Below are positions 3,001-9,000 of a stretch of DNA of 27,334 nt, piece after piece. This DNA comes from Escherichia coli (GTDB taxonomy: Bacteria > Pseudomonadota > Gammaproteobacteria > Enterobacterales > Enterobacteriaceae). Position 1 is the first letter of the stretch. The number at the start of each line of letters is the position of its first letter. Position numbers: made by a program. The stretch lies in NCBI RefSeq assembly GCF_003334315.1, contig NZ_QOWR01000063.1. One strand, written 5' to 3'.

Positions 3001-6000
3001 GATAACCAATCTCAAACAGGGGGCTTTAAATAATCTTGCAATGACAACTCCGGCTTATAATTTATCTCCTGTATTCAATCTGAATCCTACATTTGAAGTG
3101 GTAACGGAGGTTCCGCTTACTATTAATTCTGACACATCCAGATTAAGCGATTATGTGGATTTTACAGCGAGAGCAAGTCGGGATAGCTTCTTGAAATCAT
3201 TAACATTAACCAGCTTATCAGGACAATCTAACGGCGGGTAATTCCCGCCATAACATTACAAGGAAATTATTATTATGGCGACCGCCGGGATTTTAACCAT
3301 ACGTGCAGCAAATACTCCAGAACAACACGTTCAGGCTGTTTACAAAGCAGAACAAGATATAAACTCTACAAAAAATACAAATAACTCTGCCTCTACTGTG
3401 AAAGGGGGGAATGGATTTGCTATTGTTACCAGTGGGCTGGCATCTTCTGGAAACGATGTTTATGAAAATTATATGGCACTGGCCTTTGACAGTGTAGATG
3501 ATGTGAACGTGAGACGTTCGGCAGATGTTACAAGCTACCCCGTAGAAAATGGTGCTACTGTATCGGATCACGTTCAAATTAAAAACAATAAGTTTTCTCT
3601 TAAAGGAAGGATCACTGAAACACCGATTAAAAGCGATCCTGGCTTGTTAAAGAGTGCAGGGGTGAACGGGAACAGAAGATCATTAGCTATCGACTACCTG
3701 AATCAGATTATGGACAGTAGACAGCCTTTTCTTCTTGTTACAGAAAATAAAACTTTTGAGAACGTTGTTTTAACAGGCATCGAATACACAGAAGAGGCAA
3801 GCGAATCCCTAGTATTTGATCTTAGCTTTGAGCAAATAAGATTAGTGTCTTATGGCACAGTAAACACTGTAGCTATCAAAACACAGCCATCTAAGAACAT
3901 TGGGGCTAATATGAAAAAACGTGTTAACACTGAAAAATCAAGTAGTGAAGGTGAAGACACTATAACTCCTGCCTTTAAACAGGAATAGCCGTAAACGCCT
4001 CTAAAACGCTCTGTAACGATGTAATTATAAAAGAGGCTACCAATCTATGTTGAAGCCTCTTTATTGCGTCTATGGCGTTGTTTTACGCCTTAAATTTGAT
4101 TTTTTATTGATTGATAAGCCTTTCTCTATTTCAGGGTAGCGTAGAAGCTCAATATAGTTTTTAAGCTCTACTGGAGAAGCTGCATTCTTGCTATATGTGC
4201 GGAATGTTTCTGTATTGCCGCGTGTATGGCCCAGGAGAAGGGCGATCCTGTCTTCTGGAATTTGATTTCGATCAAGAAGCTGTGCTACTCCGTGTCTCAG
4301 AGAATGAAACACCTTCCTTTCTGTTCCCTTTTCCCCTAAAGCCTTTCGTTTAGCCCTGGTAAATCTCTGCGTGTGCCACGTGGAACGTTTACCATCAGCA
4401 CGCTCTGTAATGCTGGCGTGATAGAACAAAAAGCCATTATGAGGCTTTTCACGCAGCGACAACACCAACGGAGTGATAAGGCTATGTACAGGCACAACAC
4501 GCGCCGCAGCTTTCGTTTTTCCCTGTGTGATTTCAAAACACAGCACACCTTCGATCTCTTTCACATCGTCTATTGTGAGACTTGCTATCTCATTGATCCG
4601 CATCCCTGTATAAGCACCGATAAGACACAAAGCTATCATTTCTTTGTTTTCTGCTGAATTACCGGAAAATACTTGCAACACTTGCAATAGCTCTTTGTTA
4701 GAAAATGCCTCGTAGCTCTCTCTACTTTGTGCCACATCAAGCCTATGCCCTCGCCAGGGGGAGAGCGCCCTTTCTGGCGCATCGTGGTAACGTGATGAAG
4801 CTAACTCCCATAGCTGGGCCATTGGGCTGATATAATTTGCAATTGATTGTTGTGAAAGGGTTTTTTGCATGTGTTCAATCCAGCCTGTAACAGTGGTGCG
4901 GCTCACATCTTGCAATGCAATATCAGGCTTTTTACGGTAGGAGAGAAACATCTCTACCGCTTTTCTTGCCTTAGCTAAAGTGGCTGGCTTCTTCTTCGTG
5001 CTGTTAATTGTCAGGTAGATTTCAAGAATTTTAAGCAATGACGGACACGAAGACGCTGTATCTTGCATTCTGGTAGCTGTTTTGGCGTATTTAGCCTTAC
5101 TGCGTAACAGTTCCAGCGTGTTCTCTATTGTGCTGTTTACAGGGGCGACACTCTCCCGTAAGCAATGGTATTCATCTGCAATCTGATCACGCTTTCTACG
5201 TGCAACACGAAGGTTACTTGTATGCAGACTCCTGACAAACGTCCTTTTTCCTTCAAAAAAGGGCTGCATATACACAGGCAGCGTGATCCTCAAATAGTAG
5301 TTACCGTAAGAATCACAGATTATGTATTGATTGGGCTTGTATCTCATAAACTCCCCGGCTAAAGTGTCGGAGCGTTTGTAATGTGAAAATTGATTGTAAC
5401 GCATAGAAAATGATAATTTTTTCTATAAGATTCAATCAATTAGTAATGGTCGTAGGTGATGGCATTAACACGAGATTAATCGAGTGTTTTACTCCTATTA
5501 TCGGCACCATTAAAATCAAAGAGTTACCCCATATTTAAATACACCACGTTTCCTCCTGTGCCGTATTTGTGCCATTGTAACCTTGGCAATTCATCAAAAT
5601 ACTGTTCTGACATCAGGCAGTGCAGGTGCAGACATTTAAGCCAATTGCTGCCGCCATTCTTTGACGTAGTCAATCAGGGCGCGGAGCTTTGGTGCAATAT
5701 TGCGACGCTGTGGGAAATACAGATAGAAGCCCGGAAATTGTGGAAGAAAGTCATCAAGCAGCGATACAAGCTTACCGCTTTCAATATATGGCCTGAAAGT
5801 TTCCTGAGTGGCAATTGTTATTCCTCCGCCGGCAAGAGCCAGCCTCAACATCAGACGCAGATCATTAGTCGTAATCTGCGGTTCAATCGCAAGGTCGAAA
5901 GTTCTCCCGTTTTCTTCAAATGGCCAGCGATAAGGCGCAACCTCCGGGGACTGACGCCAGCCGATACACTTATGGGTATTTCCCCCGGAGGCGAGAAAGC

Positions 6001-9000
6001 GCTCTCCACGCCCGGCCGCAAGGATCAGGACGACGGGGGCAGGCATGAATCCTCCTCCTGATGGAGACGTACAGAGGCGACTTCTGCCAGCACGGAGAGT
6101 GCCAGAGTATGCGCATCCCGGGCTTTGGGGAATATCCCGACGGGTGCCCGGATTTGCGTTGTTTCCTCCCTGGACCATCCCAGCTCGTGGAGCTTTTGCA
6201 GACGTAACGTGTGGGTTCGATAGCTGCCCAATGCGCCGAGATAAAAGGGTTTTGCTTCTCGCGCGGCCTGCAACACTGGCAGCTCCCGGTTGAGATCATG
6301 GCACAGCAAAATGACCGCCGTATCGGTATCGATCTGAGCGCTGGCTGAGGCCGGAAAAAGATCGAAGATATGGCTGTCATAGCCTGTGGCTGCTGCAAGA
6401 CTCGCGGTTGCCTGCGCCTCAAGAGAACGTCCGTAAATCATCAGCCTGACGCATGGCCTGAACCCCACCTCAAAGCCATTGAGATTCCAGCCCGTCCGGG
6501 TTTGCGTGGGCAGGCACACCAGCGATTGTGCTTGCGGATCGTAGCGCAGCCCCACCGGTTTTCTCTGTTCCAGGCGGTTCAGCACGGCGAGCAGAGGCTG
6601 TGCCGAGCGTAGTTTATGGAGCGTCAGCGTGATCCCACCGCCGCAGGGCAGAACGATGTCAAACCACGGCGAACCTTCGCCATAGCGAATTTCGCGATCG
6701 CGGCCTGAGCCCATCATCTCCAGCGCTTCAAAAGCGGCAGCGGCCTCCACGCAGCCGCCAGAGACAAAACCGCAGTAACGACCATCTTCGCGCACCACCA
6801 TCTGCGCCCCGAGCGGGCGCGCCGCGCCGCCGCGTATCTCCACCAGCGTCACCAGCACCGCTCCTTTACCGGACATTAGCGCCTCTACGGCGAAGCGCAG
6901 AATGGTCCGGTGGTCATCGGTGAGAAACGCCTGCTCTGGCTTATGCCAGTGTTCGTCTTTGTCAAAAAGCGGGTATGACATTGTTCCTCCTTAAACCACA
7001 TCCGGCAGCTTATCGAGCAGCTTATCCAGAGTGATGGGATAATCCCGTACCCGAATACCGGTGGCGTTATACACCGCGTTGGCGATAGCCGCGCTCACGC
7101 CGCACAGGCCCAGCTCACCGACACCTTTGGCCTTCATCGGGGAGGATATGGGGTCGGTATCATCCAGGAAAATCACCTCCTGTTTTGGGATATCCGCATG
7201 AACCGGCACCTCATACCCCGCCATATCGTGATTAACGAAGTAGCCCAAACGGTCATCCACCGCCAGCTCCTCCATCAGTGCCGCGCCCATGCCCATAGTC
7301 ATTGCGCCAATGACCTGGCTGCGCGCAGTTTTCGGATTCAGGATGCGTCCTGCAGCACACACAGCGAGCATACGCCGGACCCGAACTTCTCCCGTCGCGC
7401 TATGCACGCCGACCTCCACAAAATGCCCGGCAAAGGTCGACTGCTGGTACTCTTTGCTCAGTGTTCCGAATTCAATGCTCTCTTCCGCTGTCAGTCTGCC
7501 GCCTGCGGTGGCTTCATGTAGCGTGGCGCTTCGGGTACCGTTGGTAATCTTGCCGTCGGCAAACTGCGACTGCTCAGGATCAAACCCGACTGCCGAGGCA
7601 ATCATTTCGCGAAGCTTCATACAGGCGGCGTAAACGCCGGAGGTGGAGGTATTCGCGCCCCATTGTCCACCAGAACCCGCAGAAACCGGGAAACTGGAAT
7701 CGCCGAGGTGAACCGCAACCTGCTCCAGCGGTACGCCAAGCATTTCCGCTGCCGTCTGGGCCAGAATGGTGTAGCTGCCGGTGCCAATGTCGGTCATGTC
7801 CGTTTCTACGGTAACGGTGCCGTTTTGTTCGAGGTGAACCCGAGCACCCGATTTTTCCAGCAGATTATTGCGAAAGCCCGCCGCAACACCGTGGCCGACT
7901 AGCCACTCCCCGTCGCGCACCTGTCCGGGTGTGGCGTTGCGCTGCTTCCAGCCAAATTTATCCGCTCCGGTGCGCAAGCACTCGATAAGCTGACGGCGAG
8001 AGAAGCAGCGCGTCGGGTCGGCGGGGTCAACCTGAGTGTCATTCAGGATGCGAAACTCGACGGGATCGATGCCCGCTTTTTCCGCCAGTTCGTCGATCGC
8101 GATTTCGAGCGCCATCAGACCGGGGGCTTCGCCGGGCGCACGCATGGCGTTCCCTTCCGGCAAATCAAGCGTGGCGAGCCGCAGGCCGGTATGACGGTTT
8201 GCCCCGGCGTAGAGTAATTCGCTTTGCTGTACCGCCGTTTCCGGCGTGCCGCCGGGCAGGTTTCCGGACCAGCTTTCATGTGAGATAGCTGTGATTTTCC
8301 CGCTCTGGTCGGCACCGATACGCAGGTGCTGAAGGGTGGCGGGGCGGTGCGTGGTGTTATTGGGAATAGTGGGGCGGGGGAGCATCACTTTAACCGGACG
8401 TTTCACCGCTCGGGCGGCGAGGGCCGCCAGCAGCGCATCGCTTCTCAGGAACAGCTTGCCGCCAAACCCTCCGCCGATATACGGGGAGATAATACGCACA
8501 TTCTCCACGGGCACTTTTAGCGTTTTTGCCAGATCGGTGCGGCACCAGTCAATCATCTGATTTGAGGTCCAGAGAGTAAGCTTATTTCCATCCCAGACGG
8601 CCATCGAGGCATGCGGCTCCATCGCCATATGGCTCTGGTCCGGGGTCGTGTAGGTAGCATCAATCTTCACCGCAGCGGAGGTGAAAGCTCCGTCAAAGTC
8701 ACCGACGTTTTTGTCGGGCGTGTCTTCCGGCGGCTGACTGACGGCCTGTTTTTCGTCCGCCAGGGAGTAAGCTCCTTTATTACGGCGATAGTGCGCCTGC
8801 ACCAGCGAGGCCGCCGCTCGCGCCTGTTCGAAGGTCTCGGCCACTACCAGCGCAATGGCCTGATGATAGTGCTCAATAGTGGGACCGCCTAACAGCCTGG
8901 CGGTGTTTTTGTCGCCTTTGCCGAGTGCCCCGGCGTTACTGGCGGTAATGACAGCCAGTACGCCCGGCGCTTTTTGCGCGGCGTCCGTATCAAGGGCGGT

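What the first reader, a model, noticed from the sequence alone, without database searches (positions are those of the whole stretch)
5636..6046. LysR-type regulator reduced to its C-terminal domain, overlapping the paoD 3' end
Only the effector-binding C-terminal part of a LysR-family protein is encoded. The DNA-binding N-terminus is missing, and the position where it should be is occupied by the end of paoD. This looks like a remnant of the ancestral regulator of the neighbouring locus, lying between the pao operon and the island boundary.
Basis: seen in the sequence. Interest (0 to 1): 0.25.

Follow-up and report, generated by a model that had tools for sequence, protein, structure and literature searches.

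The report
Chimeric relic ORF yagP beside paoD
This is the known E. coli gene remnant yagP: a 6.1-kb deletion joined the first 24 codons of a lost molybdenum-cofactor gene to the last 112 codons of a LysR regulator, and the result is most likely a harmless relic.

Summary
Window 5636-6046 (-) is an intact 136-codon ORF that overlaps the paoD stop by 22 nt. Its residues 24-131 match only the second half of the LysR substrate-binding domain, and there is no HTH. It is the same feature as E. coli K-12 yagP (b0282), so the fragment itself is already known.

- **Full-length gene.** A 299-aa LysR gene sits at this position in 389 of 5,426 complete E. coli genomes, for example O157:H7. It is divergent from an SDR oxidoreductase gene, so that gene rather than pao is its likely target.
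- **Deletion.** A roughly 6.13-kb deletion between two CATAA microhomologies removed LysR codons 1-187, the SDR gene, a second LysR gene, an alpha/beta hydrolase gene and an MFS transporter gene. 2,672 genomes share this junction, including strains with no island at thrW, so the island did not cause it.
- **Start of the ORF.** The start codon, Shine-Dalgarno sequence and first 24 codons are not LysR. They are the stub of a MocA-family cytidylyltransferase gene that follows paoD in other Enterobacteriaceae. Every E. coli genome searched keeps at most 81 nt of it.

The ORF is therefore an accidental in-frame fusion and most probably non-functional. Interest is low.

The parts
5636..6046 (-). Chimeric 136-codon ORF, equivalent to E. 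coli K-12 yagP (b0282)
   Evidence: ORF list and translation. K-12 annotates the same 411-nt CDS overlapping paoD as 'putative LysR family substrate binding domain-containing protein YagP'. PGAP annotates only the 339-nt LysR part as a pseudogene in the identical genome.
5636..5974 (-). LysR-derived 3' segment: codons 25-136 plus the stop, corresponding to residues 188-299 of the 299-aa full-length regulator
   Evidence: blastn aligns window 5493-5974 with O157 locus L001 8001-8481 at 96.9%. BLASTP gives 110/113 identity to residues 187-299. Pfam LysR_substrate matches model positions 103-207 of 209.
5970..5974 (-). Deletion junction: CATAA microhomology shared by the MocA-like stub (codons His25-Lys26) and the LysR gene (His188-Lys189)
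   Evidence: The two blastn segments overlap at 5970-5974, with alignments. Undeleted strains L096 and L097 carry ...ACCCATAAATTAAG next to paoD, and LysR1 carries ...AATCATAAGTGT. All 11 truncated alleles sampled share ACCCATAAGTGT.
5975..6046 (-). Stub (codons 1-24, MPAPVVLILAAGRGERFLASGGNT) of a lost pao-linked MocA-family NTP-transferase gene, including its start codon
   Evidence: 21/26 residues are identical to the N-terminus of the intact 184-aa gene that overlaps paoD by the same 22 nt in L003. That gene matches Pfam NTP_transf_3 at E 2.6e-23 and NCBIfam MocA/YgfJ at E 7.5e-24, which is below the curated cut-off. Similar 180-199-aa ORFs (longer where the script extended the start into paoD) follow paoD in about 24 of 38 loci examined, nearly all of them the Enterobacteriaceae loci.
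6051..6058 (-). Shine-Dalgarno-like GGAGGAGG, 4 nt upstream of the ATG and inside the paoD coding sequence; inherited from the MocA-like gene
   Evidence: Read directly from the sequence. It is conserved in L003, where it serves the intact gene.
6025..6981 (-). paoD (XdhC-family molybdenum cofactor insertion chaperone), the last intact gene of paoABCD; its 3' end overlaps the ORF by 22 nt
   Evidence: ORF list, RefSeq annotation of the identical genome and NCBIfam XdhC-family matches.
5491..5509 (+). 19-nt copy of the 3' end of tRNA-Thr thrW (ACTCCTATTATCGGCACCA): att core and right-hand boundary of the island
   Evidence: Collinearity with island-free BL21(DE3) starts at window 5491, inside its tRNA-Thr. 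Alignment. ARAGORN finds no complete tRNA in the window.
4070..5404 (-). Tyrosine integrase of the island inserted at thrW. This is context only and is not part of the remnant.
   Evidence: PHROG integrase match, E 3.3e-33. NCBIfam tyrosine recombinase matches. PGAP annotation.

Best explanation
The ORF is an accidental in-frame fusion of two gene remnants and is most likely a non-functional relic.

Step 1 (shown). In other Enterobacteriaceae the pao operon has a fifth gene, a MocA-family NTP transferase of roughly 180-190 aa. Its start codon lies at or up to 22 nt inside the 3' end of paoD. In every E. coli genome searched, only its first ~81 nt survive, and unrelated DNA follows.

Step 2 (shown). 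The older E. coli arrangement is thrW, LysR1 (299 aa), a divergent SDR oxidoreductase gene, a hypothetical gene, a ykgR fragment, LysR2, an alpha/beta hydrolase gene, an MFS transporter gene, the MocA-like stub and then paoD.

Step 3 (shown). A single ~6.13-kb deletion between two CATAA pentamers joined stub codon 24/25 to LysR1 codon 188. One pentamer lay in the stub and the other in LysR1, and both happened to be in the same codon phase (His-Lys). About half of all sequenced E. coli inherited this junction.

Step 4 (inferred). The fusion keeps the stub's Shine-Dalgarno sequence and ATG, and no terminator lies between it and paoD. It may therefore be co-transcribed and even translated with pao. 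The product would have no DNA-binding domain, no RD-I half of the effector domain and no NTP-transferase fold, so it is expected to do nothing. The loss of the pao-linked transferase is tolerated because MocA (YgfJ), encoded elsewhere, makes the cytidine dinucleotide cofactor and hands it to PaoD (PMC3909100).
For: - Domain content: the window ORF has only LysR_substrate positions 103-207 of 209. Full-length LysR1 has HTH_1 at residues 5-64 and LysR_substrate positions 4-207.
- Breakpoints: window 5493-5974 aligns with L001 8001-8481, and window 5970-6400 aligns with L001 14611-15040. The O157 and SCU-316 annotations list the intervening genes.
- Chimera: residues 1-26 are 81% identical to the L003 MocA-like N-terminus, and residues 24-136 are 97% identical to LysR1.
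- MocA-like gene after paoD: seen in about 24 of 38 loci examined and identified by Pfam and NCBIfam.
- Truncation in E. coli: the L003 and O157 DNA are collinear at 91% identity up to 81 nt into that gene and then diverge. None of 5,426 E. coli genomes has more than those 81 nt.
- Junction precursor: ACCCATAAATTA is present in undeleted strains.
- Population counts: 389 genomes have the full-length gene and 2,672 span the junction.
- Independence from the island: the identical junction occurs in strains without an island.
- Dispensability: LysR1 was lost independently by a separate 2.05-kb deletion and is completely absent in WCHEC4533.
- Relaxed constraint in the stub: 0 synonymous versus 5 non-synonymous polymorphisms, including R15C in K-12 within the GxGxR motif.
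- No terminator-like site between paoD and the ORF.
Against: - All 11 sampled alleles keep the 136-codon frame open.
- In the LysR part there are 6 synonymous and 9 non-synonymous polymorphisms (pN/pS 0.46). This is not distinguishable from the neighbouring paoD control, with 7 and 6 (0.30). Neutral decay is therefore not demonstrated.
- The ORF has a good ribosome-binding site. One 2-D gel study lists a weak peptide-mass match to YagP, with 3 peptides (PMC3342100).
- The K-12 RefSeq record lists yagP as a CDS, not a pseudogene.
Confidence: 0.86

Rival explanations
1. The chimeric ORF is a retained, functional small protein. It would be translated by coupling to paoD and would act, for example, as a decoy or heterodimer partner for a paralogous LysR regulator, or would interact with the PaoD/MocA maturation machinery.
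For: The frame is intact in 11 of 11 sampled alleles, and the junction is present in 2,672 genomes. A strong Shine-Dalgarno sequence is present and no terminator follows paoD. pN/pS in the LysR part is 0.46, not clearly neutral. There is a weak proteomic hit. K-12 annotates it as a CDS.
Against: - Only half of the effector-binding domain is encoded. The effector-binding cleft of LTTRs lies between RD-I and RD-II (general knowledge), so it cannot form.
- All stub polymorphisms are non-synonymous.
- The same LysR gene was destroyed independently at least twice more in other lineages, and PGAP treats the fragment as a pseudogene.
- The wide distribution is explained by inheritance of one old deletion.
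- At about 2% divergence, the absence of frameshifts in 411 nt across 11 alleles is uninformative.
Confidence: 0.08
2. One reading: a local truncation in which the regulator of the pao locus lost its N-terminus and the end of paoD now sits where the HTH was.
For: The remnant is adjacent to and co-oriented with pao, and overlaps paoD.
Against: In genomes with the full-length gene, LysR1 lies 5.6 kb from paoD. It is separated from it by five other annotated CDSs and a ykgR fragment, and it is divergently paired with an SDR gene. The overlap with paoD belongs to the MocA-like stub, not to LysR sequence.
Confidence: 0.03
3. The K-12-type arrangement is ancestral, and the O157-type 6.1-kb block is an insertion.
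For: The block is present in a minority of genomes: 913 carry the paoD-MFS spacer. The DNA next to the stub is AT-rich.
Against: An insertion would have to supply exactly the missing 187 codons so as to complete a contiguous HTH_1 plus LysR_substrate gene. It would also have to regenerate the stub's CATAAATTA, which matches the intact gene in L003. A second CATAA copy at the other end is the signature of a deletion. The spacer is single-copy and not a mobile element.
Confidence: 0.03

Closest known systems
E. coli K-12 yagP (b0282, YP_009518746.1), 'putative LysR family substrate binding domain-containing protein YagP'
   Same: Same position between the thrW att remnant and paoD. Same 411-nt ORF, same 22-nt overlap with paoD and same ACCCATAAGTGT junction. 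The protein is identical except R15C.
   Different: Nothing essential differs. The neighbouring island does differ: K-12 has CP4-6 with intF and a longer tRNA remnant, whereas the window has a different integrase and a 19-nt att core.
Full-length LysR-type regulator WP_000687183.1 / WP_000687184.1 of E. coli O157:H7 and SCU-316. The nearest NCBIfam model is YafC, and the nearest solved structure is 3hhg, annotated only as a LysR-family transcriptional regulator.
   Same: The C-terminal 112 residues are 97% identical. The gene has the same position and orientation next to thrW.
   Different: The window lacks residues 1-187: HTH_1, the linker helix and the first half of the LysR_substrate domain. 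The divergent SDR partner gene is also gone.
MocA (YgfJ) / PucB family CTP:molybdopterin cytidylyltransferases encoded next to XdhC-family chaperones (pucA-pucB in B. subtilis, xdhC-mocA on Arthrobacter pAO1; PMC2997495)
   Same: The first 24-26 residues carry the N-terminal LAAGxGxRF nucleotide-binding motif. They sit exactly where the intact MocA-family gene starts in other Enterobacteriaceae, overlapping the XdhC-family gene paoD.
   Different: Only about 13% of the gene survives, so no NTP_transf_3 domain can form. The intact relatives score below NCBIfam's MocA equivalog cut-off (84.7 against 186 bits). They are family relatives of MocA, not proven MocA orthologues.

Membership tests
LysR-type transcriptional regulator (LTTR) | N-terminal winged helix-turn-helix (Pfam HTH_1, PF00126) | tested here: not met
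   Pfam finds no HTH_1 in the 136-aa ORF. NCBIfam on the 180-aa in-frame extension matches only the same C-terminal region. The full-length allele has HTH_1 at residues 5-64.
LysR-type transcriptional regulator (LTTR) | Complete effector-binding domain (LysR_substrate, PF03466, about 209 positions; RD-I plus RD-II) | tested here: not met
   Only model positions 103-207 of 209 are present, against 4-207 in the full-length allele.
LysR-type transcriptional regulator (LTTR) | Descent from an LTTR gene (sequence homology) | tested here: met
   110/113 residues are identical to residues 187-299 of WP_000687183.1. The DNA is 96.9% identical over 482 nt.
LysR-type transcriptional regulator (LTTR) | Divergently transcribed target gene next to the regulator | tested here: not met
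   This arrangement is absent from the window. In O157 and SCU-316 an SDR oxidoreductase gene lies 98 nt upstream on the opposite strand. It was removed by the same deletion.
E. coli yagP (b0282) | Same locus, same ORF boundaries and same fusion junction | tested here: met
   Annotation of NC_000913.3. Junction and protein comparison.
MocA/MobA-like NTP transferase (Pfam NTP_transf_3, PF12804) | Complete nucleotidyltransferase domain of about 160 positions | tested here: not met
   Pfam reports no NTP_transf_3 match in the ORF. Only residues 1-26 align to the intact L003 protein, whose own domain spans residues 6-145.
MocA/MobA-like NTP transferase (Pfam NTP_transf_3, PF12804) | Syntenic descent: start codon overlapping the 3' end of the XdhC-family gene, and the N-terminal LAAGxGxR motif | tested here: met
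   The 22-nt overlap is the same as in L003. 66 of 78 nt and 21 of 26 aa are identical.
Pseudogene / gene relic | Absence of purifying selection on the reading frame | tested here: inconclusive
   Among 11 alleles, the LysR part has 6 synonymous and 9 non-synonymous polymorphisms and the stub has 0 and 5. The paoD control has 7 and 6. No frameshifts or stop codons were seen. The sample is too small to decide.

The most novel reading that the evidence does not exclude
The accidental fusion placed half of a LysR effector domain behind the ribosome-binding site of a lost pao-operon gene. A 15-kDa MocA-stub::LysR-half protein would then be made whenever pao is expressed, and it would have been kept because it does something. 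Possible roles include titrating a paralogous LysR regulator or touching the PaoD/MocA cofactor hand-over. That would be a documented case of de novo gene birth by deletion-fusion in E. coli.
Probability: 0.05. Interest if true: 0.45.

Novelty: already known. Interest (0 to 1): 0.12.

Why it matters
As a LysR remnant the finding is ordinary and already annotated as yagP. Three by-products have modest value.

- **Annotation.** The ORF annotated as a CDS in K-12 is a chimera of two unrelated gene fragments, and its start codon belongs to neither a regulator nor a complete gene. This argues for pseudogene status.
- **Pao operon biology.** In other Enterobacteriaceae the operon carries a fifth, MocA-family gene that E. 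coli has lost. The papers I read call paoD the last gene of the operon and describe E. coli PaoABC maturation as depending on the unlinked MocA. The lost gene suggests a dedicated cytidylyltransferase to test in other genera.
- **Strain typing.** The thrW-paoD interval exists in at least four states. These are full length, the 6.1-kb deletion, a 2.05-kb deletion, and complete absence of LysR1. The states are usable as lineage markers and illustrate microhomology-mediated gene loss next to an integration hot spot.

Tried and rejected
- **In-frame HTH.** I looked for one by extending the ORF upstream to 6178. The extension only overlaps paoD in another frame and has no additional family match.
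- **Complete tRNA at the island boundary.** ARAGORN finds none. Only a 19-nt 3' fragment is present.
- **Selection test.** Polymorphism counts in 11 alleles, with paoD as an internal control, have too little power and the result is inconclusive.
- **Is the AT-rich spacer after the stub in O157-type strains a repeated or mobile element?** It is single-copy per genome.
- **Does more of the MocA-like gene survive in O157-type strains or anywhere in E. coli?** tblastn finds nothing beyond codon 24. No genome covers more than 81 nt.
- **Orthologues of the deleted genes next to pao in other genera, to date the arrangement.** Only matches of about 31-66% identity were found in the pao loci (MFS up to 66%, SDR up to 56%, both LysR genes about 35-42%), and none lay in the E. 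coli arrangement.
- **Terminator between paoD and the ORF, or downstream of it.** None was found by the simple scan.
- **Literature on yagP and on a fifth pao gene.** There are only table mentions of yagP and nothing on 'paoE' in the held library.
- **Not run.** I did not use structure prediction or the large protein searches, because the answer would not change the verdict.
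Full report
**1. What is in the sequence**

On the minus strand an ORF runs from ATG 6046 to the stop at 5636-5638. It encodes 136 codons beginning MPAPVVLILAAGRGERFLASGGNTHKCIGWRQ.... paoD lies at 6025-6981 (-), so the two reading frames overlap by 22 nt.

Pfam finds a single domain, LysR_substrate. Residues 24-131 match model positions 103-207 of 209 (E 1.5e-14). NCBIfam gives only C-terminal matches to LysR regulators such as YafC, and the 180-aa in-frame extension to 6178 adds nothing. One refinement is that only the second half of the effector-binding domain is present.

**2. Identity**

The segment is E. coli chromosome. A 701-nt probe across it is 100% identical to strain 2017.04.03CC and matches 3,982 of 5,426 complete E. 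coli genomes.

In K-12 MG1655 the same 411-nt ORF, overlapping paoD in the same way, is annotated as yagP (b0282), 'putative LysR family substrate binding domain-containing protein YagP'. PGAP annotates only the 339-nt LysR part, as a pseudogene missing its N-terminus. The finding is thus an already catalogued feature.

**3. The full-length gene and the deletion**

O157:H7 strain 86-24 and strain SCU-316 carry a 299-aa LysR gene at this position next to thrW. It has HTH_1 at residues 5-64 and LysR_substrate model positions 4-207. The following features then lie between it and paoD:

- a divergent SDR oxidoreductase gene, 98 nt away
- a small hypothetical gene
- a ykgR fragment
- a second LysR gene
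- an alpha/beta hydrolase gene
- an MFS transporter gene

Two blastn alignments define the breakpoints. Window 5493-5974 aligns with L001 8001-8481, and window 5970-6400 aligns with L001 14611-15040. About 6.13 kb is therefore missing from the window, and the two segments overlap in the pentamer CATAA (5970-5974).

Undeleted strains L096 and L097 read ...GGAAATACCCATAAATTAAG next to paoD. LysR1 reads ...GAATCATAAGTGT. The window reads ...GGAAATACCCATAAGTGT. This is the signature of a microhomology-mediated deletion. O157 and SCU-316 have since lost one C of the CCC run, which closes their stub after 26 codons.

Population counts:

- 389 genomes have at least 80% of the full-length gene.
- 2,672 genomes span the junction.
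- Every truncated allele I fetched has the identical junction.

This points to one old event that has been widely inherited.

**4. The first 24 codons are not LysR**

Homology to LysR1 stops at codon 25. The upstream 72 nt, including the ATG and the GGAGGAGG located 4 nt before it, are also present in O157-type strains directly after paoD.

I fetched paoD loci from other genera and examined 38 of them. In about 24, nearly all of them the Enterobacteriaceae loci, paoD is followed at an offset of about -21 to 0 nt (start calls reaching further into paoD in a few loci) by an ORF beginning M..PVV(I/L)ILAAGRGERFLASGG.THKLDALL.... These ORFs are 180-199 aa long (193-211 aa where the script extended the start into paoD). 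The genera include Leclercia, Enterobacter, Franconibacter, Siccibacter, Citrobacter, Cedecea, Kosakonia and Atlantibacter.

The closest locus is L003, whose paoD is 89% identical at the protein level. Its 184-aa ORF has these properties:

- It overlaps paoD by the same 22 nt.
- It matches Pfam NTP_transf_3 at E 2.6e-23.
- It matches NCBIfam MocA/YgfJ at E 7.5e-24, below the equivalog cut-off.
- It is 21/26 identical to the window ORF's N-terminus at the protein level and 66/78 at the nucleotide level.

L003 and O157 are collinear at 91% DNA identity until 81 nt into this gene and unrelated afterwards. No E. coli genome has more than those 81 nt.

So yagP is a chimera. Its translation start and codons 1-24 come from the stub of a lost pao-linked MocA-family gene. 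Codons 25-136 come from LysR1. The fusion is in frame because CAT-AA is in the same codon phase (His-Lys) in both genes.

**5. Relation to the island**

Collinearity with island-free BL21(DE3) begins at window 5491, inside the last 19 nt of tRNA-Thr thrW. ARAGORN finds no complete tRNA in the window. To the left lie a tyrosine integrase (4070-5404) and phage-like structural genes.

BL21(DE3), d1-58, WCHEC035123, 23CRST029 and IBS28 have an unoccupied thrW and the same truncated gene. O157 and SCU-316 have islands and the full-length gene. The truncation is therefore unrelated to the island.

**6. Is the relic functional?**

Arguments for function:

- The frame is open in 11 of 11 sampled alleles.
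- There is a good Shine-Dalgarno sequence and no terminator-like site after paoD.
- One 2-D gel study lists a weak three-peptide match to YagP (PMC3342100).

Arguments against function:

- The product lacks the HTH, the first half of the effector domain and almost all of the transferase fold.
- The stub shows 0 synonymous and 5 non-synonymous polymorphisms, including R15C in K-12 within the GxGxR motif.
- LysR1 was independently destroyed by a 2.05-kb deletion with about 9 nt of microhomology in EP91A, KE40 and 2021CK-01784. It is entirely missing in WCHEC4533.

The LysR part shows 6 synonymous and 9 non-synonymous polymorphisms (pN/pS 0.46). The paoD control shows 7 and 6 (0.30). This test lacks power and I call it inconclusive. 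My best estimate is a non-functional relic, possibly transcribed and translated as a passenger of the pao operon.

**7. Comparison with what is known**

The feature is the same as K-12 yagP. It fails the defining tests for an LTTR, because it has no HTH and an incomplete effector domain. It also fails the test for an NTP transferase, although it descends from both families.

Pairing of XdhC-family chaperone genes with MocA-family genes is known in other systems, such as pucA-pucB and Arthrobacter pAO1 (PMC2997495). In E. coli, paoD is described as the last gene of paoABCD, and the unlinked MocA supplies MCD to PaoD (PMC3909100). Loss of the pao-linked gene in E. coli fits that picture. I found no paper describing a fifth pao gene or the chimeric nature of yagP in the held library.

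**8. Verdict**

It is a remnant, but of a regulator that probably served a deleted SDR gene.
- The remnant was created by a 6.1-kb deletion and is fused to the stub of another lost gene.
- Novelty: already known. Interest: low.

Noticed in passing
L003 10936-11490 and about 24 other paoD loci (L004-L034); window 5975-6046: In most other Enterobacteriaceae the pao operon has a fifth gene of about 184 aa, a MocA-family NTP transferase whose start lies at or up to 22 nt inside the end of paoD. All 5,426 complete E. coli genomes retain at most its first 81 nt.
   Followed up: yes
window 5970-5974; L001 ~14607-14615: The point where the E. coli stub stops resembling the intact MocA-like gene (after ...CATAAATTA) lies only 4-9 nt from the left end of the later 6.1-kb deletion (CATAA). 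This is either coincidence or a local hot spot. The adjacent spacer is single-copy, not a repeat element.
   Followed up: partly
L096 3437-3445 (also L086, L087): An independent 2.05-kb deletion with about 9 nt of microhomology leaves only 231 nt of the same LysR gene. It removes the SDR and hypothetical genes but keeps LysR2, the hydrolase, the MFS transporter and the stub.
   Followed up: yes
L097 1-3812 (WCHEC4533): A fourth locus state. LysR1 is completely absent, and an island carrying a reverse transcriptase and an AbiEi/AbiEii toxin-antitoxin pair abuts the ykgR fragment.
   Followed up: no
L001 14606-14686; L085: O157:H7 and SCU-316 have ACCATAA where other strains have ACCCATAA, a loss of one C. 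This closes the stub ORF after 26 codons (MPAPVVLILAAGRGKRFLTSGGNTIN*).
   Followed up: yes
window 11865-12063 (+): A full-length Rfam match to IS009 (RF02111, 195 bits against a gathering score of 117) lies in the yagU-ykgJ intergenic region. PGAP annotates a 231-nt hypothetical CDS at about the same place (L084 13465-13695).
   Followed up: no
window 22608-26864 (+) and 26897-27274 (-): An intact 1,418-aa intimin-like inverse autotransporter adhesin, in an EaeH/FdeC-like position. It is followed immediately by an ORF matching the C-terminal half of an IS1 transposase.
   Followed up: no
window 1-5490: The end of the island at thrW carries phage-like genes: a weak major-head match, a tape-measure-like protein and a baseplate or tail protein. 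Its integrase differs from K-12 intF. Its att core is 19 nt, whereas the ptwF remnant in K-12 is about 47 nt.
   Followed up: partly
L096 11795-13745 (strain 2021CK-01784): paoA is interrupted by an ISEc31 (IS3-family) insertion, so the pao operon itself is inactivated in some strains.
   Followed up: no
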